A DNA stretch of 64,000 nt from Eledone cirrhosa. Lineage: Eukaryota. Position 1 is the first letter of the stretch, and every line of letters starts with the position of its first letter. This document shows positions 1 through 52,796 of this stretch, piece by piece. The translations under genes and the position numbers were made by a program. The notes below the pieces were generated by a model. That model searched no databases and was not told the DNA's origin. It saw only the letters and a list, made by a program, of their open reading frames with translations. The stretch covers positions 87,730,001 through 87,794,000 of the forward strand of contig OZ024741.1 of the NCBI GenBank assembly GCA_964016885.1, given 5' to 3'.

Positions 1-469
1 CCGCTAATCCCAGACAGTCCCAGCGTGCATCTAAGATCCCGTTCCAGTCGCCCACTAACACTAACGAGCGGGATGTTCCAAGAAAGGTCTCCAGACGCCG
101 GAAGAAATCAGGCCGCCCTGCTCCTGTCGGGGCATAGACGGCCACTAGCCTGAAAGCTTGCCCGTCTCCGCTGGTCACGTCCAGCACCACAAACTTACCC
201 TCTGGGTCCAGGAAGATGGCCCGTATGGCGAGATCCAAACCTCTCCGAAAAAGCACAGCAACTCCTCCCCCCGATCCAGGACGGCTGGGAGATGCGTACA
301 CATCGTAGCCGCCGAAGATCGGTGCGAAGGCCCGTGCTTCGGAGATTCTGGTCTCGCTGATGGCCACTACATCTATGTTTAGTGACCTGAGGTCGTTGAG
401 CAGGTGACCCTGCTTCCATGACGACCCCAAGCCACGCGCATTTATGCTGCCTATTCTGAGTGAGGTCAT
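1..469 (-). CDS. Tx1 ORF2 N-terminus, apurinic-like endonuclease (partial)
   Basis: Motifs SINARGL, VAISET, VYAP and VGDWN read on the - strand; same protein as ORF 13774..15177. Confidence 0.88.
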   Translation of the reverse strand, partial: MTSLRIGSINARGLGSSWKQGHLLNDLRSLNIDVVAISETRISEARAFAPIFGGYDVYASPSRPGSGGGVAVLFRRGLDLAIRAIFLDPEGKFVVLDVTSGDGQAFRLVAVYAPTGAGRPDFFRRLETFLGTSRSLVLVGDWNGILDARWDCLGLA

Positions 470-504
470 GTTTAAAATAGGGTGGAAAAGATGGGAAAGA
501 CCAC

Positions 505-2551
505 TTACCGTACTTGATCGTCAGGTGAAGGGACCGTTGAATCGTCCCTTCGGCTGGTCGTCGGTTCTTCTATGAGTATGTCCGAATATACTCTCCGGTC
601 TCTGAAATCACCAACTGCGTTGGGGAATTTCGTTTTAATGTTTGTGTATTGTTTCTGTGCTATTTTTAGCAGTCTTATGTTAGTTGGCGTTTTGATTGGT
701 GCTGGTATTATGTAGTCGTGCTGTGAAATGTCTGTGTGTTCAATTATGTAAGTCATTAGTTTCTTGTGTGTATTTATTGCCGTGCATTTGTTTTTCTGGG
801 GGTGGGTGTGGTTCTGCTATTTTCTTGTCGTTGTTGCTGGGTGCGTGTGTTTTGTTGTTGTGTTTGCGATGTTGGTGCTTGTGGTGGTGGTGCTGAAGGT
901 GTTGTTGTTGTTGGCGGTGGGGTTGTCGCCGGTGGTGATGGTGGTGCTAGTGTGGGTGGTGATGGTGTTGGTGATGTTGCTGCTGTGAGTCTCTTTGCAG
1001 TAGCCTTTACCCTTTTTTCATTTCTTTCCTCCTTTTTCGAAGGCGACGATGCGCTGCTTCTGCGTTTGTGCCTTCTTACGACCTTTTGCCATCCCTCTCC
1101 CACCTCACACTCCATGTCTGATTCTGTGAGGTCGGGGAGGGGTACCAGCTCCACTCTTTCACTTGTTGTTGGTGATGTTTGCACTGGAGTCTCTGTTGCA
1201 GCTGCATTTGGTATTACTGTTGTTGTTGTTAATACTTCCACTGCTGCTGCTGTTTTTGATTTCCGTGGCGTGGGTATGGGTGCCACGGACCTATCGTTCC
1301 TGGTTGCCGCTTGTCCTGTTGCTGATAGCCGTGAATCCGGTTTCGGAAGGAGGGGGGTTTTCTCCTTTCTCAGGGTCTTCTCGTTGCAGAAGGCCCTGAG
1401 GTGAGTCTTCGATCCACAGCGAAAGCATTTCGGGCGTTTGCCCTCAACACTTATGGGCAGTTGAGTGCCGTTATCGAAGTCTATCACATCCGGGATAGCT
1501 TCGATGCACTCCTGGTTGGTTTGGATTAACATCTCAATGGAGGTGCCGACCCAATCTTCTCTTACTTTTTCTGTACTTGCAGTACAGTTGTTTTGTCCTC
1601 AATTCCGACGAGGACAGACGCGACCAGCCAAGAAGGGGCCATCCCGGAGGGGACGTGGGTCAGTTTGACCCTCACAATTTTTTGCCCGCAGTAGGAGGGC
1701 ACCAACACCATTTCCTCGCTCCTTAGGATCACTAAGGATTGAGCCTTTGCCTCCTGGGGTGTGGCAAAAAGCACGTCTACGGTGGCATATTTCTTGCCTC
1801 GGGTGATGTGCGTTTTCCGCTGCCACACAGACCCTAAGGCTTTTTGTATTTGAGCCTCTGTGGCTCTTTCAACCCTACGGGATTTTGTGGTTACTGTACG
1901 GTACGTGACCGTACAGTGCTGTTGGGTTTCGAAAAATGTTTCGGCTGCCTTGCAGATTGCTCGGTGTCCGGTTTTTGTCACTTTCTTCTTCGCTTCCTCT
2001 AATTCCTCATTCGTTATGAGGATGGTTTCCAGGTTCTTTGCGATACCTGCAAACGAGATTGGTTTTTCTTTGCTGCTGTTGTTGTTGTTGTTGTTGTCGT
2101 CAGAGCTGCTGTTACTTTTGTTGTTGCTACAGGTACTACGACTACTGCCGCCGCCGCTGTTGCTGTGGTTGTTGTTGTTGTTGCTGCTGCTTCTGTTGTT
2201 GTTGCTGCTAATGCTGTTGTTGTTTATGCTGCTACTGATGCTGTTGCGGCTGCTACTGTTGTTTTCCTTGTCACTGTTGCTGCTGCTGCTGTTATTACGG
2301 CTGCTACTGCTATTATTCCTGACGTCAGACGAATGAAATGGGTTTTCATATTTCCCGCACACCTTTTTCGTCGTTGTCGTCGTCGTCGTGGAGAAATCTT
2401 GCACACTTTGCACGTGATTTTTCTTTTCTGGCGTCGCTTGCGAAAGAGAAGGGAGGGAGAGAGACAATCTTCTCTCTGCTGTAGTGACGATTGAGGAAGA
2501 AGAAGACGGAATGAGTGGGAGTGACCTATGAAAATTCTTTTTCGTAGCCAT
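505..2551 (-). pseudogene. Tx1 ORF1 (gag-like; RRM-like core, CCHC knuckle, low-complexity linkers), two frameshifts
   Basis: ORFs 1562..2584, 774..1532 and 505..756 join into one protein. Knuckle CFRCGSKTHLRAFC. Core homologous to 15697..17259. Likely start MATKK at 2551. Confidence 0.82.
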
Positions 2552-2780
2552 GTTTTTTTTTTGTTTAAAATAAATATTGGGCACAAAACCCCAATAAGCG
2601 GTTATTTAACCCGAAGGGCCAAATAACGGGCAGAAAGACCCCTCTCACGAGGAGGAGGGTGTTTTTGTCTACAATTTGGTTAAAGTTTTAAACAATTTAC
2701 AATTGTTATAGCGGTCAAAATTTACAATACCTTACAGAGCCGAGCCTCCGTCAACCATAGCATTCAATAATAATAATAAT

Positions 2781-3440
2781 GTTTTCTTTATTAACCACAA
2801 GGGTTTACATAAAGTAGACATTAAAGACAGTACAGGACAATACAGGACGGTACAAATGGGCATTTCTGCATGTAAAAAAAACAGAGGATGTAATAAAATA
2901 ACAAAGAAAAATTCCCCAATAGGGGGGAGACTTCCGAGGGACATTTGTGGAGAAAGCCCATTAAAAGACCACAGTGACCCTGACCACCAGGGCAAGTGCC
3001 CTCTCCCAGTTTTCCACCTTTAATTTAGAGACACATACTCAGAGTAGGCCCATTCACTTAGGCTAAAGGAAGAGGGCGGGGAAATCCTCACGATGGACTC
3101 AGCTGATAGCTGGATCCGTCCTACACGTGACAGCAGGTGTTCGACATAAACCCACAAGTCAGCAATGCTCGGACACTGGACGAGTGCGTGCAGGATGGTT
3201 TCGTCGCCCTGCGCGCATCTCGGACATGCCCGGCTGACGGCACCTCCATGCCTGTAGAGTTTATCCCGAACTGGCAAAGCTCCCCGGTAGCACTGCCAGG
3301 CCAGGGATTTCTGGAAGTTGTCCATAGCCCCCGGCCCGAAAGTCCTTCCGAAGAGATTGGCTAGTTGATTTTCGTCGACGCCTAGAGTTTCTCCAAGTAC
3401 ATCGTCACTCTTCCCCTCCACTAATCCTCTATAGAACGCC
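2781..3440 (-). mobile_element. 5'-truncated Tx1 3' fragment with an internal deletion of about 220 bp
   Basis: Matches 11516-12389 (ORF2 C-terminal CPRC...H...C and the 3' UTR) but lacks about 11791-12008. Flanked by (AAT)n on both sides. Confidence 0.9.

Positions 3441-3536
<96 letters not shown>
3441..3536. repeat. (AAT)32 microsatellite, target or tail tract
   Basis: Read directly. Confidence 0.97.
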
Positions 3537-3537
<1 letters not shown>

Positions 3538-3667
3538 GAACAGCAAGAACCCTCCGATACGTCCTGAATATCTGAGGCTGCAGGTAGTGGCTTGATATTC
3601 AATCCAACGGACTTTCCAGTTAACCAACATCAATGACTGAGATTCAAGGAATAACAATAACAATAAC

Positions 3668-3765
<98 letters not shown>

Positions 3766-3766
3766 G
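3537..3766 (+). mobile_element. R4/Dong family B extreme 3' fragment with (AAC/AAT)n tail
   Basis: GTARTLRYVLNI* and 3' UTR match about 22403-22516, followed by about 115 bp of AAT-type tail. Confidence 0.9.
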
Positions 3767-4705
3767 GGAAGAAGACGCACGAGGTGGTAGAAGGTCATGA
3801 AATCGCTCCTCTTAAGTTTTTGATTTTTAACATATTTAAATCAATTGTGAAATAACAATTCTTAGTACAAATGTTGCATAAACCACCGAATCAGGTCCCA
3901 TAAAGTTTCGGATCCATATTATATTGTTGTATCGCTCAAATATTCAATTTTGTATTATATATTTTGTATTCAAAAAAAGAAAATGGTTATAAATGGGAAA
4001 AAAACACCCTCTGTCTACACTATATAGAACAGCCAAATAACAGCAATTTCACCAACACCAGAAACTTGATACACCACCTATCCCATCACACTAAATATAA
4101 CAGCCAGATAACGGCAATTTCACCAGCATCATGATAATAATTACTATTATTATTGTCTCAAATTTTAAAAAAATGTTTAATTCCAATTTTACGGGAATAT
4201 GTCAACACAAAATATAATAAAAATATATATTAAACATACGAACACAAACTCATAGATACTACATATCAGTAACCACAACGCCACCGCTGCCACCACCCCA
4301 CCCCATCCATCATTGCTACCACTATCCCATCGTCGCCGCCACCACTCCTTCAATGCTACCACCACTATTCCCCTGTTAACTTGAGAGAGAAAGGGGAAGG
4401 TGGCGGTATCACTAGACAAGGGAGAGGCTAGCAAAAGATATAAATAGATTGACTTAGTGACCTGGCCACCGGCCAAACGTCAACATCAACAACTATGGGA
4501 CTGCTGGCTCACCCCTTCCTCACCAACAATATAAAAAGCCCCGGCACCACCACCGACATAGCCAACAACAATAACAGCCAACTACAACAAAAAGTATATT
4601 ATATTATTGTAATACACTGGGTGATTGCTGGCCTTGTGCCTGGAGTGGAGACAATTATTAATAATTTCATTCTTAAGCCACGCAATGCTCACATTAAGGA
4701 ACCAC

Positions 4706-7700
4706 TCATGATAATAACAATTTAAAAAAACAACAAAAAGAAAACCCCGTGACCAAGAAATACCGGGATGGCGGCCGGCGGGGAATAGCCGTGTCTCTAG
4801 GGGAGAACGACCCCTCTAGTCTTGGTTGACACTCGTTCTAGAAGTGGTAACACGAAATGATTACCCCTTGGCGGATAAGGATAAAACGCGACAAAATAAA
4901 GTAAATGTCTAATGATAAAATCTCATTCCGGATCGGCCGTCACCCGGGTAAAAAAGGGCCGCGTCCCTCAGAGAGGAACCAGACTGGGGTCGAAAAATCA
5001 GCTAATGGTTCAAACCTTCCCATCACTTCGGAGCTGGAGACCTCCCATAACCGGAATACTCCTACTGTTGGCCCTCCATGCTCACCACCAAGAAATCCAA
5101 AGAAAAAGAGAGAAAAATGGTCAAGGGAAGATAATAAAGAAGTCCTTGAGGCTTTCTACACTGCCATGTACTACCCATCAAATACATCGAATACAGAACA
5201 GACATATATCAACTGGAAAAAGAAACATCCCGAAAACAGAGGCTATATTGACAATAACAAACTAGCCAATATACGAAGAAATATTGTAAGAAAAAAGTTA
5301 CTAACTGATATAGAAATTGATCAGATCAAGCTATTAGCACAAAGTCAGCGAAGGGAAAATGAAACATGTGTCAGTGAAAACGAGGTAAACTGTAACACTT
5401 CGAACCCCAGGGTTGGGGCGGAATCACTGGCAACAGAACAAATTAAAGAAAGGATCGAAAAAGTGGAGGGAGTGCATGCTCAGGATGAAACTCCAAATGA
5501 AAATAATGAGATCGTAAATGAGAATGAGCTTGCCAACTTGAAGGATGAAATTATGATCGAATGGATGAAAATGAAAGAATCTGACATGGGGCAACGAGAC
5601 ACCCTCCCTAAAATCCAGAACTCCAAACAGAACCAAAAGATAATACACAAGACTAACATAATTCTCAAAAACATTATCATCACAAACAAATTAAACATTA
5701 CTGATTTAAATCATCTCTATTATGCATCGGCTAAAGTCACCACTCACTTATGTGGAGGGAAGATGAAAAAACAAAGGAATTCCCACAAGAAATCTACTTG
5801 GCAAGAGAACATCAATCGCCAAATAAACCTTCTCCGATCTGACATAGAAATTTTAACAAACTATAAAGTAGGTGAACATGTTAAACAAACTAAACTTAGA
5901 AAATTGAAAAAAAAGTACAGTATAAAATCAACATGTGACATAGACATGCTGATAGAAATAATCAAGCAAAAAGTGTCGGCCAAAGCTGCTCGTATAAGGC
6001 GCTTTGAAAAACGATCTAGATTCTATAAGGACAATAATATGTTCAAAAACAACCAAAGAAACTTCTACAGAAAAATTGGTAAGTCAACAATAACTGCTAA
6101 ATCAATACCACCCAAGGAGGAAGTGCAAGAATTCTGGGAAAAGATCTGGGCCGAAGAAAAAGTTCATAACATACATGCCCCATGGATAGACAGACAAATG
6201 AAAGATACAGCTCACCTTGAGGAACAAACATGGGAAAATATAACAGTTGAACAGTTGCGCTTGGCTCTAAGAAAAACCAGCAAATGGAAATCCCCAGGAA
6301 AAGACAAAATACAAAACTTTTGGATAAATGCTTTCACAGTGTCTCATGAGCTGTTAGCCCAACTTTACAATGAAATAGTTAAGGAGCCAGAAAAGATACC
6401 ATCATGGCTAGTTAACGGCATTACATTCCTGCTTCCGAAGAATGATGAGACAAACAATCCCAAAAATTACAGACCGATAACTTGCTTGACCACAATGTAT
6501 AAAATTTTAACATCAGTCCTAACTGTACACATATGACCACCTGATAACAAATGACCTATTTCCCATTGAGCAGAAAGGGTGTAAACGAGGCTCATATGGC
6601 TGTAAGGATCAGCTTCTGGTTAACAAAATGATACTGGAATATTGTCATAATAGACACAAAAATCTATCGATTGTTTGGATAGATTATAAAAAAGCATTCG
6701 ATAGTTTGCCACACAGTTGGATTGAAAAATGTTTAGAGGATTTTCAAAATATCCCCCGTTGTCAGGAGGTTTTTGTCATTCAGTATGAAGACATGGAAAA
6801 CGACACTCCTTTTGAATAGTGAAACAAAATCACTGGAAGCTGGAGAAGTTAATATTAATTGTTGAATTTTTCAGGGTGACTCTTTATCACCGCTTTTATT
6901 CTGCATCGCACTTATACCATTAAGTAAAATGCTCAATGAAACAAAACATGGATATAAAGTCTATGACAAAACCATTAATCACCTGTTCTACATGGATGAC
7001 CTGAAACTATTTGCAAAAAATGATGAACAATTGCAAGGGCTATTATCCACTGTGAAGCAGTTCAGTGATGACATTAAAATGGAGTTTGGACTAGATAAAT
7101 GCGCCAAAGCAACGTTCACCAGAGGAAAGCTGCTGAAGAGTTCAGACATTAATCTTGATCGGGGGAACGTGATAAGAGAACTTGATCAAGAAAAAACTTA
7201 CAAATATCTAGGTGTTTGTGAAGGAGACGGAATCAAGCACTCGACAATGAGGGAAAGGATAAGGAAAGAATGTTACCGCAGAGTAAGAGCAATCTTAAGA
7301 ACGGAATTGAATGCAAGGAATAGGATCGATGCCATAAACACGCTTGCCATACCAGTAGTAACCTACAGTTACAATGTCATCAACTGGTCAAGCACAGAGA
7401 TCCGTAGGCTCGATACAAAAATTCGAAAATTCTTAACCATGCACAGAATGCATCACCCTAAGGCAGATATAGATAGAATATATCTCCCTAGGAAAGAAGG
7501 AGGACGTGGGTTAATCCAGTTAGACATTGCGTTGAAAACTGCAACAATTGGATTATCTACATATCTAAGGGAATCACATGATTGGATGATCAAACTCGTT
7601 TTGAAACACGAAAGCATCAAAAGATCATATTCCATTACAAAAGATGCACAAAGATACAGTAATGGACTACAAATTTCAGAAGTCCCATTTACTGCTGAAA

Positions 7701-8700
7701 TGGAAAACACAGAAAAAGCAAAGCAGGTAAAAGTAACTGCAAAGAAAGAACTGCTACAGAAACTGGCTAAGAAATGGCAAGAAAAGCCTCTGTATGGAAA
7801 ATACCCAGAGCGAGCTAACAATCCTGATGTTGACAAAACTTTAACCCATCAGTGGTTGGCATCCTCTGGACTGAAATCGGAGACTGAAGGACTGATTATA
7901 TCGGCACAAGATCAGTGTCTGCCAACAAAAAATTACCAAGCCAACATAATAAAAAATGGGTGCAGCCCATTATGCCGTGTATGCAAAAAACAACCAGAGA
8001 CCATTGACCATATAATTTCAATGTGCAGTCCTATAGCTCCAACCGAATACCTAAACAGGCATGACAGAGCTGCACAATACATACATTGGATAATGTGTAA
8101 GCATTTTGACCTGCCCCATCAAAAGAATTGGTGGGAGCATCAACCACCTCCCATACTTGAAAAAGATCACATCTCAATCTTGTGGAACTTTAGCATCCAA
8201 ACAGAACGAAAAATAGATGCAAATAGACCTGATATAATATTGAAGGACTTTCAAAAGAGGGTATGCCTGCTAATTGATATGTCTGTTCCAATAGACAAGA
8301 ATGTATCTATAAAAACATTTGAAAAATTGAGCAAGTATAAGGATCTGGAGATAGAAATTGGAAAAATGTGGAAATTGAGAACTAAAACAATACCAGTGGT
8401 TGTAGGCGCTCTGGGAATGATACCTAAGGGTCTAATGACTACTTATCGCAAATCCCAGGAAACCCGCGTATAGGAGAAATACAAAAGATAGTACTAATGG
8501 GAACTGCCCATATACTAAGGAAGATTCTGTCAATATAAGTACATCACAAGTCTAAACACTAAAGATGCATGTGTGAATATGTATGTTCTTTCTTGAACAT
8601 GGCGGACCTTGTTGTCTCTTGAGGTCACTGGTTGTGACTTGGTGATAACTCGTATGAACATAAAGCAAGATAAATGCAACTGTAATAATAATAATAATAA
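4706..8700 (+). mobile_element. R4/Dong-clade retrotransposon family A, near full length, with (TAA)n tail
   Basis: Single-ORF RT-RLE layout. The 3' UTR ends ...gataaatgcaactg then (TAA)n, the same as 18779. The 5' boundary is approximate. Confidence 0.9.
4905..8538 (+). pseudogene. Dong-A polyprotein: N-terminal Myb-like region, reverse transcriptase, CCHC finger and restriction-like endonuclease; disrupted
   Basis: KWSREDNKEVLEAFY; KSPGKDKI; NYRPITCL; IDYKKAFDS; LFYMDDLKLF; CRVCKKQPETIDHIISMC; RHD; RPDIILKD...LIDMSVP...KLSKY. Breaks near 6536, 6740, 6862 and 8430. Confidence 0.9.
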
Positions 8701-8707
8701 TGATAAT

Positions 8708-9029
8708 GTAAAAAGGATTTGGAATTGCCATGAAGGTAAAAAGGATTTGGAACTGCCATGAAGTCAAAGTGATCCCGATTGTCATAGGCGCACTAGGGAC
8801 TATCACAAAAAGTTTCCAGGGATGGTTAAAGAAAATTGGCCCCTTCACGCTTTTTGGAACGCTTCAAAAGGCATGCTTGCTGGGAACAGCAAGAACCCTC
8901 CGATACGTCCTGAATATCTGAGGCTGCAGGTAGTGGCTTGATATTCATTTCAACAAACTTTCCAGTTAACTAACATCAATGACTGAGACTCAAAGAGTAA
9001 TAACAATAATAATAATAATAATAATAATA
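8708..9029 (+). mobile_element. Dong-B 3' fragment with a duplicated 28-bp 5' end and tail
   Basis: VKRIWNCHEVKVIPIVIGALG...YVLNI* plus 3' UTR. gtaaaaaggatttggaaYtgccatgaag occurs twice in tandem. Confidence 0.88.
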
Positions 9030-11515
9030 ATGTTCGACAACAACCAGAAGATGCTGTTTGGACAGCTTGAAGGGAAAGAAAGAGGCAACGACTTGATCCC
9101 TGAGGCGGAACAAACTAAAACATTCTGGAGAGGAATATAGGAGCAGGATGTTAAACATAATGACCAGGCAGTGTGGATTGAGACAGTACAGAAGGAGATT
9201 AGTGAACAGGCATACCAACAAACTGATTTGAGTATCACAGTTGAAACTCTTAAGGGGCAGGCCAAAAAACTAACCAACTGGAAATCACCAGGCCCAGATG
9301 GTGTGCAGGGGTATTGGATTAAAAATATAACATCCCTCCACCCGAAACTGACAACCATGTTCAATGACTGCTTGATGTCAGGTGAGGTACCAGAGTGGTT
9401 GACAAAAGGTACCACAGTTCTGATAATGAAAGACCGAATCAAGGGTAATGATGTTACCAACTATAGACCTATCACATGTCTGTCCGTAATGTGGAAACTG
9501 TTGACAAGCATTATGTCTGAGGAAATCTACCATCACCTCCACACAAACAACTTGTTACCGGACGAACAGAAAGGATGCCGAAAGAAGTCACGTGGTACAA
9601 AGGACCAGTTACTTATTGATAAGATGGTAATGAGGAATTGTAAGAGGAGACACACTGGTCTTGCCATGGGATGGATAGACTACAAAAAGGCATTTGACAT
9701 GGTGCCTCATTCTTGGATCACCAAAAGCCTGGAGATCTTCAAGGTGGCAGATAACATCAGACAGTTGTTGGGCAAAAGTATGAAGTCCTGGGAAACAGAG
9801 TTAACATCAACTGGAGAATCCTTGGGAAGCGTGAAGATCAAGAGAGGTATCTTCCAGGGAGATAGTCTGTCCCCTCTGTTGTTTGTCCTTGTCCTGGTGC
9901 CCCTGACCAGTGTTGAGAGCAGGATACAGGTTGGGAAAGGGAGGGCTTACCTCAATCACCTCCTCTTCATGGACGATCTTAAGCTCTTCGGGAAGAGTGA
10001 GAAGGAGTTGGATGTGCTTGTTGACACTGTCCGTATTTTCACCAATGATATATGTATGCAATTTGGTATTAGTAAGTGTGGAGTCATTGTGATGAAGAAG
10101 GGTAAGTTGAGCAGAAGTAACGGAATCCAGGTACTAACGGGTGAGATGATAAAGGAAATTGACTCTGAAGAAGGATACAAGTATTTGGGCGTTCTGGAGG
10201 CTGATGACATCAAGAACAGAAAAATGAAGGAATTGATAAGAACTGAATACATTCGGAGAGTAAGGAGCGTATTAAAGTCACATCTGAACAGTAGGAATGC
10301 CATAAGTGCAGTAAATTCCCGAGCTGTGTCTATTATTAGGTACAGTGCGGGAATTCTGAGATGGAATGTTGCTGAACAGAAAGAAATGGATAGGAAGACT
10401 AGGAAGCTATTGACTATCTACAACATGTTCCACAAGAGGAGTGATGTCGATAGACTCTACTTAAGGAGATCTGAGGGTGGAAGAGGTCTTATCAGCATAG
10501 AGGACTGTGTTCAGATGGAGAAAAACAACCTACACAAATACGTGACTGATAGTAAGGAGCCAATGCTCAGAACTGTACTGAAGGAGGGGACAATAGGCCA
10601 GGGGATGTCCAAGGAGGAAATAACATCAAGGAGAAAGAGCAGCCTTCAGGAAAAATCCCTTCATAGTACCTTCTTTGAGAAAACTGAATTTAGAGATCCA
10701 CAGACACGGAACTGCTTGAAAAGAGGAGACCTTAAAAAGGCTACAGAAGGAATGTTAATGGCTGCGCATGAGCAGGCCCTTAAAACGAAGTGGTTGAAAC
10801 ACCATATTTACAAGGAGGAGGCTAGCCCACTGTGCAGGATCTGTGGAGAGAGAGAGGAGACTGTGGCTCACATTGTATCCGAGTGCAAACACCTAGCCCA
10901 GACTCACTATAAGGGCTGGAGACATGATGTGGTGGGCAGGGTGATCCACTGGCACCTGTGCAAAGTAAACAATTTACCACATTCTGAGAAGTGGTATGAG
11001 CATAGGCCAGAGGCGGTGATAGAGAACAATCAGGTGAAGGTGCTGTGGGATTTTAGGATACAGACGGACAAAAAACTGGAACACAATAGACCTGACCTGG
11101 TGGTTGTGGACAAAGAAAAATGATCGTGTCTGATTGTGGAAGTGGCCTGCCCTTTCGACACGAGAGTGCAAGAGAAGGAGAGGGAGAAAATTAATCGATA
11201 CCAGGACCTAAAGTGGGAGGTGAAAAGGATTTGGAACTGCCATGAAGTCAAAGTGATCCCGATTGTCATAGGCGCACTGGGGACTATCTCCAAAAGTTTC
11301 CAGGGATGGTTAAAGAAAATCGGCCCCTTCACGCGTTTTGGAACGCTTCAAAAGGCATGCTTGCTTGGAACAGCAAGAACCCTCCGATACGTCCTGAATA
11401 TTTGAGGCTGCAGGTAGTGGCTTGATATTCATTCCAACGGACTTTCCAGTTAACCAACATCAATGACTGAGATTCAAGGAATAACAACATTAATAATAAT
11501 AATAATAATAATAAT
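9030..11515 (+). mobile_element. Dong-B 5'-truncated copy (RT-RLE, with stop codons and a small deletion) plus tail
   Basis: ORFs 9171..11123 and 11136..11405: LLFMDDLKLF, CRICGEREETVAHIVSEC, RHD, RPDLVVVD. Starts at the position matching about 20054 of the full copy. Confidence 0.92.
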
Positions 11516-15177: not shown

Positions 15178-15211
15178 GTTGAAAAGGAGTGGAAAAGATG
15201 GGAAAGACCAC

Positions 15212-17208
15212 TTACCTTACTTCTCGTAGGGGAAGGACGGCTTTTCCATCCTTTTCACTGCTTGTGGCCTCCTCAGGAAGGATGTCCTTATAAATCCTCC
15301 TGGAGAGTGCTTGTCGGAAGTCTCCGATGTCTTTGGGGAATTTTTGTTTTAGTGTCATGTACGTTTTCTGTGTGATGCGAGTGATTTGTATGTGTGGCGC
15401 TGGTGTGAATTTTGGGGTTGTTGTGTAGTCTTTTTCTGTGATGCTGGTGTTGTGTTGGATGTAGTATAATAATTGCTTGTTGTTCAAATTTAATGCTGTG
15501 TAGTGTGTATCGTTTTGGTTGTTTTGTTTTGTTTGCGTTTGTTGTGGGTTTGTTTCTGTTTCGCATTTTGGTGACTTTTGTGGTGTAGGTGATGGTGGTG
15601 CTGGGGATAATGATGGTGATGGTGTTGGTGTTTGGGTTGATGGGGTTGGTGATGCTGGTGTGGATGGTGGCATATCTGTCCTAACTTTTTTGTTTCTTAG
15701 TTTATTTGTTTCCCTCTGTATTTTGTTTTTGGAGGGGGAAGGAAGAGAATTTTTTCTTTTTTGGTTTCTTTTTTTTTTCCGGATATCGTTTCCCACTCCT
15801 CGTCGTCACAATCTGTCTCCAGTTGTGATAGGCCGGGGAGTGGAAAATCCTCCACAGCCGTTAGTTTTGGTTGTGGTGTGGTGGATGGTGTAGGCGCTGG
15901 TGCTAGTTCTGAAGCGTTGGGTGGTGGTGGTGTTGGTTTTGCTGGTGGTGGTAGTGGTGTTGGTTTTGCTACTGTTGCTGGGGTTGTTGCTGTTATAGTT
16001 GCTTCTGTTGTTGCTGCTACAGTTGTTGCTGCCATCTCTGCTACTGGTGGTGTTGATGGTTGTGTCACTGGGGTGGGTAGGAGAGGTGGCCTCAACCTTT
16101 TAGCCTGAGGGCAGAAAGCCCTTAGGTGGGTTCCTTCACCACAAACGACACACCTAGGTCTTCTGCCCTCGACAATTACCGTGAGGTGGCTGCCGTCAGT
16201 GAGGTCTATTACCTCTGGGATCTCCTCAATGCTTTTTTGGTCCGCTTGGATCAGGAGCTCCATCCCAGATCCGGACCAGTTTTCCTGCTTTTCTTTTGCT
16301 ACTGCTATTATTTTCGTGTTGGCTTCGATGCCAGCGAGGACAGCCGCTATTAGCCAGGGAATTTCGATGGCCGGTGGAACGTGGGTCACCCTGATCTTTA
16401 CGAGTCTCTGGCCACAATAGCTTGGGACGAGTGTGAGGTCGTCACTTTTTAATGGGGCCATGGAGTGTTCTCTAGCCTCCTCTGGTGTTTCGAAGAACAC
16501 ATCCACGGTTCCATACTTTTGCCCACGTCTGATGTGGGTTTTTCTTGCCCACACATGTCCCAAAGCTTTTTGGATTTGGGACTCGGATGCCCGTTCCACT
16601 CGGCGCGATTTTACATTTATTGTTCTATACGACACGGTGCACAGGCGCCGATGCTCCATTTTATTAGGTGGGGGGGTGAGGCTGACCCTGTACCCATCTT
16701 TCTTTACCATTTGTTTGGCATTTTCTAAATCTTCTTGAGTTACCGTGAACGCTTCGAATTGTTTTGCTACGATGGCGAAACTGAGGGTCGGTTTTATAAT
16801 GTCATTGTTGTTGTTGTTGCTATCGTTAATATTAATTTTATTTTCAGTTGTGGTGGTGGTGACGTCAGTCGTCTTTGGTGGGGAAGAGTCCATTTTGCTT
16901 GATTTCATTTCGACATCACGAGTTAATTTATTTTTTTCTTCTTTTGTTTCTGTTGTCGCGGTGGTGGTGGTGGTGGTGGTGGTGGTGGTTGTCGCGGTGG
17001 TGGTGGTGGTGGTGGAGGCTTTAACACCTGCAGTCATTGGTAATGGCGGGAAATGAATGTCTGCCTGAGACAAATTTAAAATATTGCTACTGCTTATATT
17101 TTTTTTTGTGTTGGCAAACGTAGTAACATTTACAATGGTGGTGTCGGTGTGAGGTGTTATTTTGTGAGGAAGGCTTTCAGCTGCTTCGTGCAGAGGTGAA
17201 GTAGCCAT
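15212..17208 (-). pseudogene. Tx1 ORF1 (gag-like with CCHC knuckle); one frameshift in an A-run near 15780
   Basis: ORFs 15697..17259 and 15212..15796. Knuckle CVVCGEGTHLRAFC. Likely start MATSP at 17208. Confidence 0.85.
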
Positions 17209-17417
17209 TTTTTTTTCAAAGAAATTTTTGATAATAATAAAAGTTAAAATTTTGGGCACAAGGCCCCAATCTTTTTAGGTGTCCTTTTCGGAAAACAATG
17301 TATGTGTGCTTATAAACAGTTAACAATAAAATTTTCCATAAATGGCAATTTTTAAACAAACGGAAATAACAAACCTTTGCGGAGCTCACGATAATACGAT
17401 TTCCTACGTAGGTCGCC

Positions 17418-17477
<60 letters not shown>

Positions 17478-17480
<3 letters not shown>

Positions 17481-18777
17481 TGGTCAAGCACAGAGATCCG
17501 TAGGCTCGATACAAAAATTCGAAAATTCTTAACCATGCACAGAATGCATCACCCTAAGGCAGATATAGATAGAATATATCTCCCTAGGAAAGAAGGAGGA
17601 CGTGGGTTAATCCAGTTAGACATTGCGTTGAAAACTGCAACAATTGGATTATCTACATATCTAAGGGAATCACATGATTGGATGATCAAACTCGTTTTGA
17701 AACACGAAAGCATCAAAAGATCATATTCCATTACAAAAGATGCACAAAGATACAGTAATGGACTACAAATTTCAGAAGTTCCATTTACTGCTGAAATGGA
17801 AAACACAGAAAAAGCAAAGCAGGTAAAAGTAACTGCAAAGAAAGAACTGCTACAGAAACTGGTTAAGAAATGGCAAGAAAAGCCTCTGTATGGAAAATAC
17901 CCAGAGCGAGCTAACAATCCTGATGCTGACAAAACTTTAACCCATCAGTGGTTGGCATCCTCTGGACTGAAATCGGAGACTGAAGGACTGATTATATCAG
18001 CACAAGATCAGTGTCTGCCAACAAAAAATTACCAAGCCAACATAATAAAAAATGGATGCAGCCCATTATGCCGTGTATGCAAAAAACAACCAGAGACCAT
18101 TGACCATATAATTTCAATGTGCAGTCCTATAGCTCCAACCGAATACCTAAACAGGCATGACAGAGCTGCACAATACATACATTGGATAATGTGTAAGCAT
18201 TTTGACCTGCCCCATCAAAAGAATTGGTGGGAGCATCAACCACCTCCCATACTTGAAAAAGATCACATCTCAATCTTGTGGAACTTTAGCATCCAAACAG
18301 ACCGAAAAATAGATGCAAATAGACCTGATATAATATTGAAGGACTTTAAAAAGAGGGTATGCTTGCTAATTGATATGTCTGTTCCAATAGACAAGAATGT
18401 ATCTATAAAAACATTTGAAAAATTGAGCAAGTATAAGGACCTGGAGATAGAAATTGGAAAAATGTGGAAATTGAGAACTAAAACAATACCAGTGGTTGTA
18501 GGCGCTCTGGGAATGATACCTAAGGGTCTAATGATTACTTATCGCAAATCCCAGGAAACCCGCGTATAGGAGAAATACAAAAGATAGTACTAATGGGAAC
18601 TGCCCATATACTAAGGAAGATTCTGTCAATATAAGTACATCACAAGTCTAAACACTAAAGATGCATGTGTGAGCATGTATGTTCTTTCCTGAACATGGCG
18701 GACCTTATTGTCTCTTGAGGTCACTGGTTGTGACTTGGTGATAACTCGTATGAACATAAAGCAAGATAAATGCAACT

Positions 18778-18832
<55 letters not shown>
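17478..18832 (+). mobile_element. Dong-A 5'-truncated copy plus (TAA)n tail
   Basis: Near-identical to 7382-8683 (ORF 17535..18569). Preceded by (AAT)20 at 17418-17477. Confidence 0.92.
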
Positions 18833-18835
<3 letters not shown>

Positions 18836-21800
18836 AATAATAACAATGAAACTTATGCTTATTCATTTTGGGGGCCCTTTCTGCCCGTGTGTTTGTTTGT
18901 TTATGTGTGTCCGTATACAGCGTGGTGATAATGCCACACAAGGGCCAAGTGGGATGGCGGATCCACAGATGGCTATGTAAACATACATTCGCCAATCCTC
19001 GATAAGAGTGTTTAAATATCGAACATAAACAGTTCGAATAACGGTGAAATGGAGACTAGAACGTCATGTGACAGACTCTCACCCAACAGGTGCCCCCTGG
19101 CTCAGCAGCAGGAACCTGACTGTCAACCAAATACTGCTGATGTTGGAGGAAGAAGAAGAAGGAAAGGGGCCAGAACCAACTGGACGAAAGAATTGAATAG
19201 AACTGTTATGCAATGCTACCTGAAAAGTAACCCCAAGGAGAGGGGCTACAGGAGACGGATGCATAACATCTGGAACGAGATTGGTTTATTTAAATTAGAT
19301 GAACAAAAATTGGCCGGGCAGGCTCGGGTAATAAGAACTAATGGGTGGATAAGCGAGCTGGAACTGGAGGAACTGAGCAGAGAGAATGGCTTGGAGATGG
19401 CGGGTGTAGTATGCCAGACAAGCGAGCCGGCGGGAAATGAAGGTGAGGAGGTCCTGAGAACGGAGGAACCACCCGAAGCAGACAATGATCTGAATACTGA
19501 GATAAATAATACCTGGAACAGAGATACGGCCACTGAGGAGATGAATGCTGACGGGCTAGGACAAGATTCGGTTGACATCCTAAATTTAGTGGTAGATGAG
19601 TTGAACAATGATAGTGGGAGACCTATGAACCTAAGATTTGTAGACAGGAAAAAGTTAAAAGAAACAACAGCTAAGGTAAACAAAGTCATCCCATACCTTG
19701 AGGCGAGGAGTCTTCACCAGTGCAACAATATCCTCAAAGCAACAGCAAATACGGTGAGGAAACTACTTGGTATAAAAGCGAGAGGAAACAACAGACAAGA
19801 AAGAGCAGAGCCGTGATGGAAGAAGCGACTGAGTGGGCAAATCGGGGAAATGAGAAATGACATAGGAAAGCTTGAGTCACTACTGAATGGGACACTAAAA
19901 AACATAGGCACTAAAAATAGACTGGAAATAAAATACAAAACTAGGAGTAAAAAGCTAAATATTATCATAGAGGAATTGAAGCAACGCATTGTAGCAAAGA
20001 GTGCCAAAATCAGGCGATACGAGAACAGAGTCAGTCAGTATAAACAGAACCGCATGTTCGACAACAACCAGAAGATGCTGTTTGGACAGCTTGAGGGGAA
20101 AGAAAGAGGCAACGACTTGATCCCTGGGGCGGAACAAGCTAAAACATTCTGGAGAGGAATATGGGAGCAGGATGTTAGACACAATGCCCAGGCAGGGTGG
20201 ATTGAGACAGTACAGAGGGAGATCGGTGAGCAGGCACAGCAACAGACTGATTTGAGTATCACAGTTGAAACTCTTAAGGGGCAAGCCAAAAAACTAACCA
20301 ACTGGAAATCACCAGGCCCAGATGGTGTGCAGGGGTATTGGATTAAACATTTAACATCCCTCCACCCGAAGCTGACGGCCATGTTCAATGACTGCTTGGT
20401 GTCGGGTGAGGTGCCAGAGTGGTTGACAAAAGGTACCACAGTTCTGATAATGAAAGACCGAATCAAGGGTAATGATGTTACCAACTATAGACCTATCACA
20501 TGTCTGCCCGTAATGTGGAAACTGTTGACGAGCATTGTGTCTGAGGAAATCTACCATCACCTCCACACAAACAACTTGTTGCCGGACGAACAGAAAGGAT
20601 GCCGAAAGAAGTCACGTGGTACAAAGGACCAGTTGCTTATTGATAAGATGGTAATGGGGAATTGCAGGAGGAGACACACTGATCTTGCCATGGGATGGAT
20701 AGACTACAGAAAGGCATTTGACATGGTGCCTCATTCCTGGATCACCAAAAGCCTGGAGATCTTCAGGGTGGCAGATAACATCAGACAGTTGCTGGGCAGG
20801 AGTATGGGGTCCTGGGAGACAGAGTTGACATCAACTGGAGTATCCTTGGGAAGCGTGAAGATCAAGAGAGGTATCTTCCAGGGAGATAGCCTGTCCCCTC
20901 TGTTGTTTGTCCTTTCCCTGATGCCCTTGACCATTATGCTGCGAAAAGTGAGAGCAGGATACAAGTTGGGAAGGGGAGAGCTTACCATCAATCACCTCCT
21001 CTTCATGGACGATCTTAAGCTCTTCGGGAAAAGTGAGAAGGAGTTGGATGTGCTTGTTGACATTGTCCGTATTTTCAGCAGTGATATATGTATGCAGTTT
21101 GGTATTGGTAAATGTGGAGTCATTGTGATGAGGAGGGGTAGGTTGAGCAGAAGTAACGGGATCCAGATACCAACAGGTGAGATGATAAAGGAAATTGACT
21201 CTGAGGAAGGATACAAGTATTTGGGCGTTCTGGAGGCTGATGGCATAAAGAACAAAAAAATGAAGGAATTGTTAAGAACTGAATACATTCGGAGAGTAAG
21301 GAGCGTATTGAAGTCACATCTGAACAGCAGAAATGCCATAAGCGCAGTAAATTCCCGAGCTGTGTCTATTATTAGGTACAGTGCGGGAATTCTGAGATGG
21401 AATGTTGCTGAACAAAAAGAAATGGATAGGAAGACTAGGAAGCTATTGACTATCTACAACATGTTCCACAAGAGGAGTGATGTCGATAGACTCTACCTAA
21501 GGAGATCTGAGGGTGGAAGAGGTCTTATCAGCATAGAGGACTGTGTTCAGATGGAGAAAAACAACCTATACAAATACGTGACCTATAGTAAGGAGCCAAT
21601 GCTCAGAGCTGTACTGAAGGAGGGGACAGTAGGCCAGGGGATATCCAAGGAGGAAATAACATCAAGGAGGAAGAGCAGCCTTAAGGGAAAATCCCTTCAT
21701 AGTACCTTCTTTGAGAAAACTGAATTTAGAGATCCACAGACATGGAACTGGTTGAGAAGAGGAGACCTCAAAAAGGCTACAGAAGGAATGCTAATGGCTG

Positions 21801-22527
21801 CGCAGGAGCAGGCCCTCAAAACGAAGTGGTTGAAGCACCATATCTACAAGGAGGAGGCTAGCCCACTGTGCAGGATCTGTGGAGAGAGAGAGGAGACTGT
21901 GGCTCACATTGTGTCCGAGTGTAAACACCTAGCCCAGACCCACTATAAGGGCTGTAGACACGATGTGATGGGCAGGGTGATCCACTGGCACCTGTGCAAA
22001 GTAAACAATCTACCACATTCTGAGAAATGGTATGAGCATAGGCCAGAGACGGTGATGGAGAACAGTCAGGTGAAGGTGCTGTGGGATTTTAGGATACAGA
22101 CGGACAAAAAACTGGAACACAATAGACCTGACCTGGTGGTTGTGGACAAAGAAAAAAGATCGTGCCTGATTGTGGATGTGGCCTGCCCGTTCGACACGAG
22201 AGTGCAAGAGAAGGAGAGGGAGAAAATTAACCGATACCAGGACCTAAAGTGGGAGGTGAAAAGGATTTGGAACTGCCATGAAGTCAAAGTGATCCCGATT
22301 GTCATAGGCGCACTGGGGACTATCTCCAAAGGTTTCCAGGGATGGTTAAAGAAAATCGGCCCCTTCACGCTTTTTGGAACGCTTCAAAAGGCATGCTTGC
22401 TTGGAACGGCAAGAACCCTCCGATACGTCCTGAATATCTGAGGCTGCAGGTAGTGGCTTGATATTCAATCCAACGGACTTTCCAGTTAACCAACATCAAT
22501 GACTGAGATTCAAGGAATAACAATAAC

Positions 22528-22587
<60 letters not shown>
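18833..22587 (+). mobile_element. Dong-B apparently full-length element plus tail
   Basis: 5' UTR, long RT-RLE ORF, short 3' UTR ending gattcaagg, then (AAT)n. Confidence 0.93.
19049..22441 (+). pseudogene. Dong-B polyprotein (about 1130 aa) with a single in-frame TGA at 19814
   Basis: ORFs 19049..19816 and 19850..22441 are in the same frame (EP*WKKR, probably Trp). NWTKELNRTVMQCY Myb-like region, FMDD RT motif, CCHC finger and PD..D endonuclease. Confidence 0.92.
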
Positions 22588-22591
<4 letters not shown>

Positions 22592-25146
22592 GAGGAACTG
22601 AAGCAACGCATTGTAGCAAAGAGTGCAAAAATCAGGCGATACGAGAACAGAGTCAGTCAGTACAAACAGAACCGCATTTTCGACAACAACCAGAAGATGC
22701 TGTTTGGACAGCTTGAGGGGAAAGAAAGAGGCAACGACTTGATCCCGGGGGCGGAGCAAACTAAAACATTCTGGAGAGGAATATGGGAGCAGGATGTTAG
22801 ACATAATGTCCAGGCAGGGTGGATTGAGACAGTACAGAGGGAGATCGCTGAGCAGGCACACCAACAAACTGATTTGAGTATCACAGTTGAAACTCTTAAG
22901 GGGCAGGCCAAAAAACTAACCAACTGGAAATCACCAGGCCCAGATGGTGTGCAGGGGTATTGGATTAAAAATTTAACATCCCTCCACCCGAAGCTGACGG
23001 CCATGTTCAATGACTGCTTGGTTTCGGGTGAGGTGCCAGAGTGGTTGACAAAAGGTACCACAGTTCTGATAATGAAAGACCGAATCAAGGGTAATGATGT
23101 TACCAACTATAGACCTATCACATGTCTGTCCGTAATGTGGAAACTGTTGACGAGCATTGTGTCTGAGGAAATCTACCATCACCTCCACACAAACAACTTG
23201 TTACCGGACGAACAGAAAGGATGCCGAAAGAAGTCACGTGGTACAAAGGACCAGTTACTTATTGATAAGATGGTAATGGGGAATTGCAGGAGGAGACACA
23301 CTGATCTTGCCATGGGATGGATAGACTACAGAAAGGCATTTGACATGGTGCCTCATTCTTGGATCACCAAAAGCCTGGAGATCTTCAGGGTGGCAGATAA
23401 CATCAGACAGTTGCTGGGCAGGAGTATGGGGTCCTGGGAGACGGAGTTGACATCAACTGGAGTATCCTTGGGAAGCGTGAAGATCAAGAGAGGTATCTTC
23501 CAGGGAGATAGCCTGTCCCCTCTGTTGTTTGTCCTTGCCCTGATGCCCTTGACCATTATGCTGCGAAAAGTGAGAGCAGGATACAAGTTGGGAAAGGGAG
23601 AGCTTACCATCAATCACCTCCTCTTCATGGACGATCTTAAGCTCTTCGGGAAAAGTGAGAAGGAGTTGGATGTGCTTGTTGACACTGTCCGTATTTTCAG
23701 CAGTGATATATGTATGCAGTTTGGTATTAGTAAATGTGGAGTCATTGTTATGAGGAGGGGTAGGTTGAGCAGAAGTAACGGGATCCAGATACCAACAGGT
23801 GAGATGATAAAGGACATTGACTCTGAGGAAGGATACAAGTATTTGGGCGTTCTGGAGGCTGATGGCATAAAGAACAAAAAAATGAAGGAATTGTTAAGAA
23901 CTGAATACATTCGGAGAATAAGGAGCGTATTGAAGTCACATCTGAACAGCAGAAATGCCATAAGCGCAGTAAATTCCCGAGCTGTGTCTATTATTAGGTA
24001 CAGTGCGGGAATTCTGAGATGAAATGTTGCTGAACAAAAAGAAATGGATAGGAAGACTAGGAAGCTATTGACTATCTACAACATGTTCCACAAGAGGAGT
24101 GATGTCGATAGACTCTACCTAAGGAGATCTGAGGGTGGAAGAGGTCTTATCAGCATAGAGGACTGTGTTCAGATGGAGAAAAACAACCTATACAAATACG
24201 TGACCTATAGTAAGGAGCCAATGCTCAGAACTGTACTGAAGGAGGGGACAGTAGGCCAGGGGATGTCCAAAGAGGAAATAACATCAAGGAGGAAGAGCAG
24301 CCTTAAGGGAAAATCCCTTCATAGTAACTTCTTTGAGAAAACTGAATTTAGAGATGCACAGACATGGAACTGGTTAAGAAGAGGAGACCTCAAAAAGGCT
24401 ACAGAAGGAATGCTAATGGCTGCGCAGGAACAGGCCCTCAAAACGAAGTGGTTGAAGCACCATATTTACAAGGAGGAGGCTAGCCCACTGTGCAGGATCT
24501 GTGGAGAGAGAGAGGAGACTGTGGCTCACATTGTGTCCGAGTGTAAACACCTAGCCCAGACCCACTATAAGGGCTGGAGACACGATGTGATGGGCAGGGT
24601 GATCCACTGGCACCTGTGCAAAGTAAACAATTTACTACATTCTGAGAAATGGTATGAGCATAGGCCAGAGGCGGTGATGGAGAACAATCAGGTGAAGGTG
24701 CTGTAGGATTTTAGGATACAGACGGACAAAAAACTGGAACACAATAGACCTGACCTGGTGGTTGTGGACAAAGAAAAAAGATCGTGTCTGATTGTGGATG
24801 TGGCCTGCCCTTTCGACACGAGAGTGCAAGAGAAGGAGAGGGAGAAAATTAACCGATACCAGGACCTAAAGTGGGAGGTGAAAAGGATTTGGAACTGCCA
24901 TGAAGTCAAAGTGATCCCGATTGTCATAGGCGCACTGGGGACTATCTCCAAAAGTTTCCAGGGATGGTTAAAGAAAATCGGCCCCTTCACGCTTTCTGGA
25001 ACGCTTCAAAAGGCATGCTTGCTTGGAACAGCAAGAACCCTCCGATACGTCCTGAATATCTGAGGCTGCAGGTAGTGGCTTGATATTCATTCCAACGGAC
25101 TTTCCAGTTAACCAACATCAATGACTGAGATTCAAGGAATAACAAC

Positions 25147-25200
<54 letters not shown>
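22588..25200 (+). mobile_element. Dong-B 5'-truncated copy (stops at 24020 and 24704) plus (AAT)n tail
   Basis: Highly similar to 19967-22516. ORFs 22499..24022, 24044..24706 and 24758..25063. Confidence 0.92.
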
Positions 25201-52719: not shown

Positions 52720-52730
52720 TCTTCTTCTTC

Positions 52731-52796
<66 letters not shown>

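What the first reader, a model, noticed from the sequence alone, without database searches (positions are those of the whole stretch)
1..25200. Self-feeding array of about 10 retrotransposons in (AAT)n with strict clade-specific polarity
Seen, in order: Tx1(-), Tx1 fragment(-), DongB fragment(+), a ~0.9-kb spacer, DongA(+), DongB fragment(+), DongB(+), Tx1(-), DongA(+), DongB(+), DongB(+). Every junction other than the spacer is an AAT-type tract. All 7 Dong pieces are on + and all 3 Tx1 pieces are on -. No SINE or dinucleotide microsatellite interrupts the array, unlike the rest of the window. Established: Dong elements target TAA repeats, and TRAS/SART insert in opposite orientations in insect telomeric repeats. 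Inference: each insertion leaves new AAT target, so three families from two endonuclease classes (RLE and APE) build a growing array like TRAS/SART, but in a microsatellite.
Basis: partly seen in the sequence, partly recalled or inferred. Interest (0 to 1): 0.78.

Follow-up and report, generated by a model that had tools for sequence, protein, structure and literature searches.

The report
Retrotransposon chain on shared AAT repeat
Two unrelated kinds of jumping gene sit in the same simple AAT repeat in fixed, opposite directions, at thousands of places in this animal genome, and this 28-kb chain is one ordinary example; each insertion likely leaves fresh repeat for the next, which gives a testable model of how such chains grow.

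Summary
Ten elements (7 Dong-like with restriction-like endonuclease on +, 3 Tx1-like with AP endonuclease on -) are joined by (AAT)5-32. Two corrections: the '0.9-kb spacer' is the 5' UTR of DongA, and the chain begins 3.2 kb upstream of the window, at an (AAG)n tract.

The locus is not special. The genome holds at least 12,364 Dong and 2,726 Tx1 3' ends, and longer chains (49-55 kb) exist. In C1:1-53.6 Mb, 128 of 184 3' ends have a same-polarity neighbour within 10 kb (null mean 6). Polarity holds genome-wide and follows from strand-specific priming on an asymmetric repeat.

Net new repeat arises: the window's tracts sum to 169 units, the longest single tract seen was 42. Truncated Tx1 copies and a likely partner SINE show 12-19 bp duplications, while 72 of 72 full-length Tx1 5' ends join in-phase ATT. 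The window's Dong copies are independent insertions; other chains also grew by tandem duplication.

Dong on TAA and opposite-strand TRAS/SART are known; an (ATT)n-targeting Tx1-like family was not found in nine searches. This scan noted the same system twice before on other DNA of this genome.

The parts
1..2765 (-). 5' part of a full-length Tx1-like element with the second 5' module ('Tx1b'): 5' UTR, frameshifted ORF1 (CCHC knuckle), start of ORF2. It continues about 3.2 kb upstream of the window to an AAT unit beside an (AAG)n tract.
2766..2780 (+). (AAT)5 junction, Tx1 5' end to Tx1 3' end
2781..3440 (-). 5'-truncated Tx1-like 3' fragment with an internal deletion of about 220 bp
3441..3536 (+). 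(AAT)32 junction, truncated Tx1 5' end to truncated DongB 5' end
3536..3667 (+). DongB 3' fragment with the AAC-variant tail shared by unlinked young copies
3668..3763 (+). (AAT)32 junction
3764..8683 (+).
8684..8701 (+). (AAT)6 junction
8702..9004 (+). DongB 3' fragment with a 28-bp tandem duplication at its 5' junction (8708-8763)
9005..9031 (+). (AAT)9 junction
9030..11487 (+). 5'-truncated DongB
11492..11515 (+). (AAT)8 tail-to-tail junction, DongB 3' end to Tx1 3' end
11516..17417 (-). Full-length Tx1-like element ('Tx1a'): ORF1 with CCHC knuckle; ORF2 with AP endonuclease, RT and zf-RVT, frameshifted near 13,780
17418..17477 (+). (AAT)20 head-to-head junction
17478..18779 (+). 5'-truncated DongA
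18780..18833 (+). (AAT)18 junction
18834..22527 (+). DongB lacking most of its 5' UTR; ORF with one stop at about 19,816, then RT, CCHC and PD..D..K endonuclease
22528..22590 (+). (AAT)21 junction
22583..25146 (+). 5'-truncated DongB, 98% identical to its neighbour but closer to copies on contig C1
25147..25200 (+). (AAT)18, right end of the chain

Best explanation
This is a chain of independent insertions by two unrelated sequence-specific non-LTR retrotransposon lineages that share the (AAT)n/(ATT)n microsatellite and read in opposite directions, and it likely grows because each insertion leaves usable repeat on both of its sides. Shown: Dong-like elements (restriction-like endonuclease) read along the AAT strand and Tx1-like elements (AP endonuclease) along the ATT strand, genome-wide; chains hold far more repeat units than any single tract; most long AAT tracts sampled are already bounded by these elements. 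Inferred from established target-primed reverse transcription: each enzyme nicks one chosen strand of the asymmetric repeat, which fixes its direction, so polarity needs no further cause. Inferred sources of new repeat: a 12-19 bp target-site duplication (4-6 units) on the Tx1 side, a short repeat tail copied with Dong, and slippage afterwards. Inferred and untested: full-length Tx1 cDNA carries upstream repeat from a read-through transcript and anneals to the target repeat, which would explain its exact 5' junctions. Chains then lengthen by preferential attachment, helped in places by tandem duplication.
For: Classes: Exo_endo_phos + RVT_1 + zf-RVT with L1 ORF2p as closest solved relative; RVT_1 + CCHC + RPD..D..K with R2 proteins as closest. 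Targeting at 5' ends, which no tail explains: Tx1a 30 of 30, Tx1b 20 of 20, 72 of 72 distinct full-length Tx1 5' ends with ATTATT in phase; full-length Dong 23 of 30 with AAT and 6 more with AAG; truncated-looking Dong 5' ends 57 of 86 with AAT, none with ATT. Polarity: among 320 de-duplicated tracts, Dong ends 171 on the AAT strand against 4 apparent exceptions, Tx1 ends 130 against 0. In complete position lists for C1:1-53.6 Mb, 24 of 25 Dong-Tx1 neighbours within 2 kb and 43 of 45 within 7 kb have the predicted orientation. Independence: the window's DongB copy ending at 22,527 is 99.8% like C1 copies and 98.0% like its neighbour; the two DongA copies likewise. New repeat: 169 units in the window against a longest pure run of 42 in 1.89 Mb fetched; duplications with non-repeat letters in 3 of 22 truncated Tx1 copies (13, 16, 17 bp) and 12 of 30 SINE copies; the AAC-variant DongB tail recurs at unlinked loci. 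Niche: 26,354 long AAT tract starts; 20 of the first 30 touch a Dong or Tx1 end and 15 do so on both sides.
Against: Tail-to-tail tracts are shorter (median 9.5, n=32) than head-to-head tracts (median 17, n=23; p=0.02), so simple 3'-tail addition is not the main source of repeat. Tracts between two elements are not significantly longer than free tracts (12 vs 7 units, p=0.08). 14 of 16 full-length Tx1 copies with an irregular 3' flank show no duplication of that flank, so duplication is not shown for full-length copies. 19 of 22 truncated copies show no clear duplication; several have another element at the 5' side. Identical truncations repeated in other chains show tandem duplication. One true inverted Dong 5' piece, and 5 of 136 neighbours within 10 kb have opposite polarity. 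Most flank samples are the first hits on C1, not random draws. No empty pre-insertion site was compared, no RNA was seen, and no read spans the chain.
Confidence: 0.8

Rival explanations
1. Targeting and polarity are real, but the elements add no repeat; split tracts regrow only by replication slippage, so the chain is fed by the host's polymerase.
For: Full-length Tx1 copies mostly lack a visible duplication; tail-to-tail tracts are short; tract lengths vary from 4 to about 40 units.
Against: Duplications of 13-17 bp in truncated Tx1 copies and 12-19 bp in SINE copies; variant Dong tails shared by unlinked copies; the excess of repeat on the 5' side is directional.
Confidence: 0.13
2. The window's chain is mainly a product of tandem duplication, unequal crossover or misassembly of a few insertions.
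For: Other chains repeat the same truncated piece (C1:55.442-55.456 Mb; C1:37.187 and 37.206 Mb); two adjacent Tx1 copies at C1:66.40 Mb are 99.5% alike. No public contig spans the stretch.
Against: All five DongB and both DongA pieces in the window have different 5' ends; the three DongB copies compared are 97-98% alike and closer to C1 copies; DongA likewise.
Confidence: 0.04
3. The AAT tracts are only the elements' own 3' tails; insertion is otherwise unspecific and neighbours are chance.
For: Both families end in the repeat; a SINE with an ATT-like tail inserts widely outside long tracts.
Against: 5' ends abut the repeat in phase (72 of 72), truncated 5' ends too; clustering is 128 of 184 against a null of 6.
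Confidence: 0.01
4. The chain is a functional chromosomal structure (subtelomere, centromere or piRNA master locus) kept by selection.
For: Dense two-strand element content could yield small RNAs; recalled as typical of piRNA clusters, not tested.
Against: The position is 87.7 Mb into a 416-Mb contig; similar chains are scattered (64 multi-end clusters in 53.6 Mb); flanks are ordinary dinucleotide-rich DNA.
Confidence: 0.02

Closest known systems
Dong (R4 clade): Bombyx Dong, DongAg, DongBg of the snail Biomphalaria (PMC3812793 passages; PMC3774820 passages and Discussion part 1)
   Same: Single ORF with RT, CCHC and restriction-like endonuclease; inserts in TAA/AAT repeats. Dong-R4 is reported as recently active in Octopus vulgaris (PMC13282606, Table 1 passage).
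   Different: Here two families (about 40% identical over the C-terminal half) with related 5' leaders share the tract with an APE element. No HDV-like ribozyme was detected (inconclusive). Clade placement by tree was not tested.
Microsatellite-specific Tx1 families: Kibi (TC)n, Koshi (TTC)n, crocodilian (TTCC)n/(TTTC)n families (PMC4494074 passages and section 15)
   Same: ORF1 with CCHC knuckle, ORF2 with APE and RT, strict microsatellite target. L1-Tx1 is reported as active in O. vulgaris (PMC13282606).
   Different: The target is (ATT)n, which I did not find in the text searched; Fig. 3 of PMC4494074 and Repbase list more targets and could not be seen. Copies are largely full length, with two exchangeable 5' modules.
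TRAS and SART in Bombyx (TTAGG)n (PMC10088271 passages)
   Same: Two families insert into one simple repeat in opposite orientations and build mixed arrays.
   Different: TRAS and SART are both R1-clade elements at telomeres; here the partners use different endonuclease classes at thousands of interstitial sites, with no telomerase to resupply target.
R2 elements whose RNA carries upstream 28S sequence (PMC3774820, Discussion part 1)
   Same: Model for uniform 5' junctions by annealing of cDNA to upstream target; fits 72 of 72 in-phase Tx1 5' junctions.
   Different: Shown there for an RLE element in rDNA; here it is only inferred, for an APE element in a microsatellite.

Membership tests
R4/Dong clade (DongA, DongB) | Single ORF: RT followed by CCHC and PD-(D/E)xK restriction-like endonuclease, no APE | tested here: met
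   RVT_1 and weak zf-RVT only; CCHC and RPD..D..K motifs in both; best PDB matches are R2 proteins, E 8e-31; an open 1,141-aa frame exists at C1:37.138 Mb
R4/Dong clade (DongA, DongB) | RT phylogeny groups with R4/Dong rather than NeSL, HERO, CRE or R2 | not tested
   No named reference came back; the label rests on architecture, target and recalled motif likeness
R4/Dong clade (DongA, DongB) | Insertion into TAA/AAT repeats (Dong lineage) | tested here: met
   30 of 30 DongB 3' ends; 23 of 30 full-length 5' ends plus 6 with AAG; 57 of 86 truncated-looking 5' ends
R4/Dong clade (DongA, DongB) | 5' HDV-like ribozyme (reported for Bombyx Dong; a trait, not a clade definition) | tested here: inconclusive
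   No Rfam match at E<=1 in window 1-31,500; my descriptor found none but had no positive control
Tx1 clade (L1 group) | Two ORFs; ORF1 with CCHC knuckle; ORF2 with APE, RT and C-terminal zinc finger | tested here: met
   closest solved relative is L1 ORF2p; open 1,152-aa frames at C1:37.13 and 37.19 Mb
Tx1 clade (L1 group) | RT phylogeny groups with Tx1L, Keno, Kibi, Koshi rather than L1 proper | not tested
   Homologues were almost all unnamed; the nearest named one is a hypothetical protein of Argonauta hians, 73%; the representatives search did not run
Tx1 clade (L1 group) | Sequence-specific target | tested here: met
   2,274 of 2,726 3' ends; 72 of 72 full-length 5' ends in phase
TRAS/SART-type telomeric array | Two families in one simple repeat, opposite orientations | tested here: met
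TRAS/SART-type telomeric array | Target is the telomeric repeat at chromosome ends | tested here: not met
   Target is AAT; the window lies at 87.7 Mb of a 416-Mb contig; chains are dispersed
TRAS/SART-type telomeric array | Both partners are R1-clade APE elements | tested here: not met
   One partner has a restriction-like endonuclease

The most novel reading that the evidence does not exclude
A self-renewing microsatellite niche: an RLE lineage, an APE lineage and a 60,000-copy SINE riding the APE lineage make most of this genome's long AAT microsatellites themselves. Full-length Tx1 copies do so by carrying upstream repeat on their RNA and pasting it in at the 5' junction, so target is manufactured by the retrotransposition reaction and chains grow without telomerase or any host repeat-maintenance system.
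Probability: 0.35. Interest if true: 0.68.

Novelty: new variant of a known kind. Interest (0 to 1): 0.47.

Why it matters
Microsatellite targeting by retrotransposons is catalogued but its mechanism is little studied. Here two enzyme classes converge on one repeat from opposite strands, with thousands of young copies, open reading frames and readable junctions. That makes three things testable: how an APE and an RLE each choose a strand of AAT/ATT, whether full-length integration uses repeat carried on the RNA, and whether long microsatellites in a genome can be largely products of their own parasites. The single locus has no special meaning; the value lies in the genome-wide system, which this scan has already flagged twice.

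Tried and rejected
DNA similarity search of the own genome with the DongB 3' end returned nothing because common words are skipped; exact patterns were used instead. 'Spacer is host DNA': rejected. 'Tandem duplication built the window's chain': rejected for the copies compared. 'Subtelomeric array': rejected. 'Tx1 also targets (AAG)n like Koshi': not supported; copies beside AAG have one ATT unit at the 3' end and pure ATT at the 5' end, so they sit at the edge of compound tracts. '3' tails are the main source of new repeat': not supported. Ribozyme in the 5' leaders: none found, inconclusive. Clade trees: no named references; the representatives search met a full queue three times. Sequencing runs: no RNA holder listed; contigs break at the repeats and none spans the stretch, so assembly of this locus is neither confirmed nor questioned by reads. 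A genome-wide count of very long AAT tracts is missing; the length ceiling rests only on the 1.89 Mb fetched. Kojima and Fujiwara 2004 (PMID 12949131) is not held; supplements of PMC4494074 could not be read. A sequence look-up in earlier findings gave nothing. One search timed out on a bad regular expression and was rerun.
Full report
Anatomy. Ten (AAT)n tracts of 5-32 units lie between positions 2,766 and 25,200, all on the + strand, and no dinucleotide run occurs before 28,551. The minus-strand elements encode an AP endonuclease, RT and zf-RVT, with L1 ORF2p the closest solved relative and a CCHC knuckle in ORF1. The plus-strand elements encode RT, CCHC and an RPD..D..K endonuclease, with R2 proteins closest. 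DongA and DongB are about 40% identical over the C-terminal half. The names Dong and Tx1 rest on architecture and target; no tree with named references was possible. The nearest named homologue of the Tx1 ORF2 is from Argonauta hians (73%), so the host is likely an octopod; that is inference.

Corrections. The 'spacer' is the DongA 5' UTR: it precedes Dong ORFs at unlinked loci, DongB has a related leader, and a 20-mer near its start has 630 exact copies. The chain begins 3.2 kb left of the window at an (AAG)n tract followed by one AAT unit. The two long Tx1 copies share ORF2 (95%) but not the 5' module; their ORF1 proteins are 35-52% identical, and both modules are common (1,571 and 2,459 exact 5' ends).

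The locus is one of many. The window lies at 87.73 Mb of a 416-Mb contig. Exact end counts are 9,992 DongB, 2,372 DongA and 2,726 Tx1 3' ends, all lower bounds, against 26,354 starts of AAT runs of eight or more units. Stretches chosen for hit density hold longer chains: C1:37.102-37.158 Mb and 37.169-37.217 Mb, 26.002-26.031 Mb, 66.40-66.43 Mb and 55.42-55.55 Mb. In 40 evenly picked 10-kb stretches, young Dong and Tx1 sequence covered about 18 of 400 kb, from a handful of stretches. Using the complete hit lists for C1:1-53.6 Mb, 128 of 184 3' ends have a same-polarity neighbour within 10 kb (null mean 6, maximum 19 in 1,000 draws), and 39 of 64 multi-end clusters mix the two classes.

Targeting. 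2,274 of 2,726 Tx1 3' ends abut three exact AAT units. Of the first 30, 28 abut a tract; across it lie a Dong end in 13, a Tx1 5' end in 7 and other DNA in 10. All 30 DongB 3' ends examined run into AAT; next come Tx1 3' ends in 10, Dong 5' ends in 11, a SINE in 2, another repeat in 2 and other DNA in 5. The 5' ends exclude a tail-only reading: 30 of 30 Tx1a and 20 of 20 Tx1b ends, and 72 of 72 distinct full-length Tx1 ends in all loci have ATTATT in phase. Full-length Dong ends have AAT in 23 of 30, AAG in 6 more, neither in 1. Truncated-looking Dong ends have AAT in 57 of 86, AAG in 1; many of the other 28 are internal breaks; none has ATT. Truncated-looking Tx1 ends have ATT in only 5 of 27, most of the rest being internal breaks.

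Polarity. Among 320 de-duplicated tracts, 171 Dong ends lie on the AAT strand and 4 appear opposite: two are a SINE matched to the SINE-like piece in the Dong leader, one is an internal run, one is a true inverted 5' piece. Tx1 ends are 130 to 0 and SINE ends 23 to 0 on the ATT strand. These loci were fetched by element and tract patterns, so the cleaner test is the list test: 24 of 25 Dong-Tx1 neighbours within 2 kb and 43 of 45 within 7 kb. Five of 136 neighbours within 10 kb disagree, and chains of opposite polarity can abut (C1:55.541 Mb). Fixed direction follows from established target-primed reverse transcription on a strand-asymmetric repeat and is not itself surprising.

Independent insertions. 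Over the last 500 bases, the window's three longer DongB copies are 97.2-98.0% alike, while each has closer matches on C1 (up to 99.8%; 40 of 54 ends aligned). The two DongA copies behave the same way. All seven Dong pieces have different 5' ends. Elsewhere duplication does contribute: the same truncated DongA plus Tx1 unit occurs twice at C1:55.442-55.456 Mb, a shared deletion recurs at C1:37.187 and 37.206 Mb, and two adjacent Tx1 copies are 99.5% alike. Public contigs do not span the stretch, so read-level validation is open.

Does the chain feed itself? The window's tracts sum to 169 pure units; the longest pure run in 1.89 Mb fetched is 42, so repeat has been created. Of the first 30 long tracts on C1, 20 touch a Dong or Tx1 end, 15 on both sides, and 6 touch no recognised element (first 11 Mb only). 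The supply of target is thus largely element-bounded, and random choice among long tracts would lengthen chains. For the source of new units I fetched 40 of the 100 Tx1 copies with an irregular 3' flank; 38 could be read. Three of 22 truncated copies have duplications with non-repeat letters (13, 16, 17 bp). A SINE with a similar 3' end (63,723 exact copies) shows 12-19 bp duplications starting in ATTAT in 12 of 30 copies and 8-10 bp in 4; that Tx1 mobilises it is inferred from the ends only. The AAC-variant DongB tail recurs at unlinked loci, so some tail units travel with the element.

A second rule appeared. All 16 full-length Tx1 copies in that set have ATT at the 5' junction, and 14 lack any copy of the irregular 3' flank; the other two fit a duplication with one mismatch. 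Four copies with CTT repeats at the 3' flank, and the window's first element, have no CTT at the 5' side. Head-to-head tracts are longer than tail-to-tail ones (17 vs 9.5 units, p=0.02), though the wider 5' versus 3' comparison is not significant (p=0.12). This fits the model for R2 elements whose RNA carries upstream target sequence and anneals to it (PMC3774820, Discussion part 1 read). For Tx1 it is inference; slippage is not excluded.

Relatives. Twenty listed runs from 15 studies hold part of the stretch. In two other organisms single contigs put AAT next to the Tx1 3' end, and one runs from the Tx1b 5' end into AAT: a weak hint that the habit is shared.

What is known. Dong targets TAA in Bombyx, Anopheles and the snail Biomphalaria; Kibi and Koshi target TC and TTC (PMC3812793 passages; PMC4494074 passages and section 15). 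TRAS and SART insert oppositely in telomeric repeat (PMC10088271 passages). Dong-R4 and L1-Tx1 are listed as recently active or expanded in cephalopods, with no target mentioned in the passages seen (PMC13282606 and PMC8967140). PMC4640811 and PMC8869645 were seen as passages. Nine searches showed no ATT-specific Tx1 family and no mixed RLE/APE microsatellite chain. However, Fig. 3 and supplements of PMC4494074, PMID 12949131 and Repbase could not be seen and may list one. Two earlier notes of this scan describe the same system on other pieces of this genome; I reached my reading, and had seen the SINE, before opening them.

Verdict. Real, well supported, genome-wide, and a new variant of known targeting habits. 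The locus is ordinary within its genome; the junction rules make the mechanism testable. Interest 0.47.

Noticed in passing
window 532-2765 versus 15237-17417: Two different 5' UTR/ORF1 modules on a 95%-identical Tx1 ORF2; both have thousands of copies, suggesting module exchange at the ORF1/ORF2 boundary.
   Followed up: partly
window about 25,800-30,855 (+): An older Tx1-like element, 70% identical to the chain's Tx1, lies 0.6 kb right of the chain on the + strand with no AAT tract at its ends; its 3' part is followed by a SINE. Two similar old copies lie 33 and 56 kb upstream of the window.
   Followed up: partly
L050:SINE; window about 4,600-4,660, 32,649, 34,529, 41,575: An abundant SINE of roughly 180-190 bases whose 3' end resembles the Tx1 3' end, with an ATT-like tail and 12-19 bp duplications; a 3' piece of it is embedded in the DongA 5' UTR.
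   Followed up: partly
L037, L041, L065, L095: At least four further Tx1-like 3' UTR variants end at AAT tracts in the same orientation, so the ATT-targeting group has several subfamilies.
   Followed up: partly
L080, L081, L137, L153; window 58,106: Another repeat ('repZ') ends at ATT tracts on the Tx1 strand; class unknown.
   Followed up: no
L038, L057, L077; window 41,751 and about 60,200: A repeat ('repY') begins after short AAT runs and often beside TA runs; class unknown.
   Followed up: no
L001:6628-6795; C1:37,170,785; C1:66,429,661; window 52,720-52,795: Compound (AAT)n(AAG)n tracts are common, often just 5' of full-length Dong, whose leader begins with a GAAGAAG-like motif; AAG runs may arise by slippage of that motif.
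   Followed up: no
L023, L024 (C1:28.015-28.018 Mb) and C1:45.777 Mb: Short Tx1 3' fragments recur at fixed spacing: two copies inside a minisatellite 2.5 kb apart, and three 3' ends 395 bp apart; likely amplified after insertion.
   Followed up: no
C1:55.541-55.542 Mb (L260): Two chains of opposite polarity meet through a rearranged junction without an AAT tract.
   Followed up: no
window 42,700-44,154 (-): Fragments of a different LINE reverse transcriptase (RTE-like by recalled motifs) broken by dinucleotide runs.
   Followed up: no
C1, positions: Full-length Dong 5' ends are unevenly spread along C1, denser at about 83-137 and 190-215 Mb.
   Followed up: no
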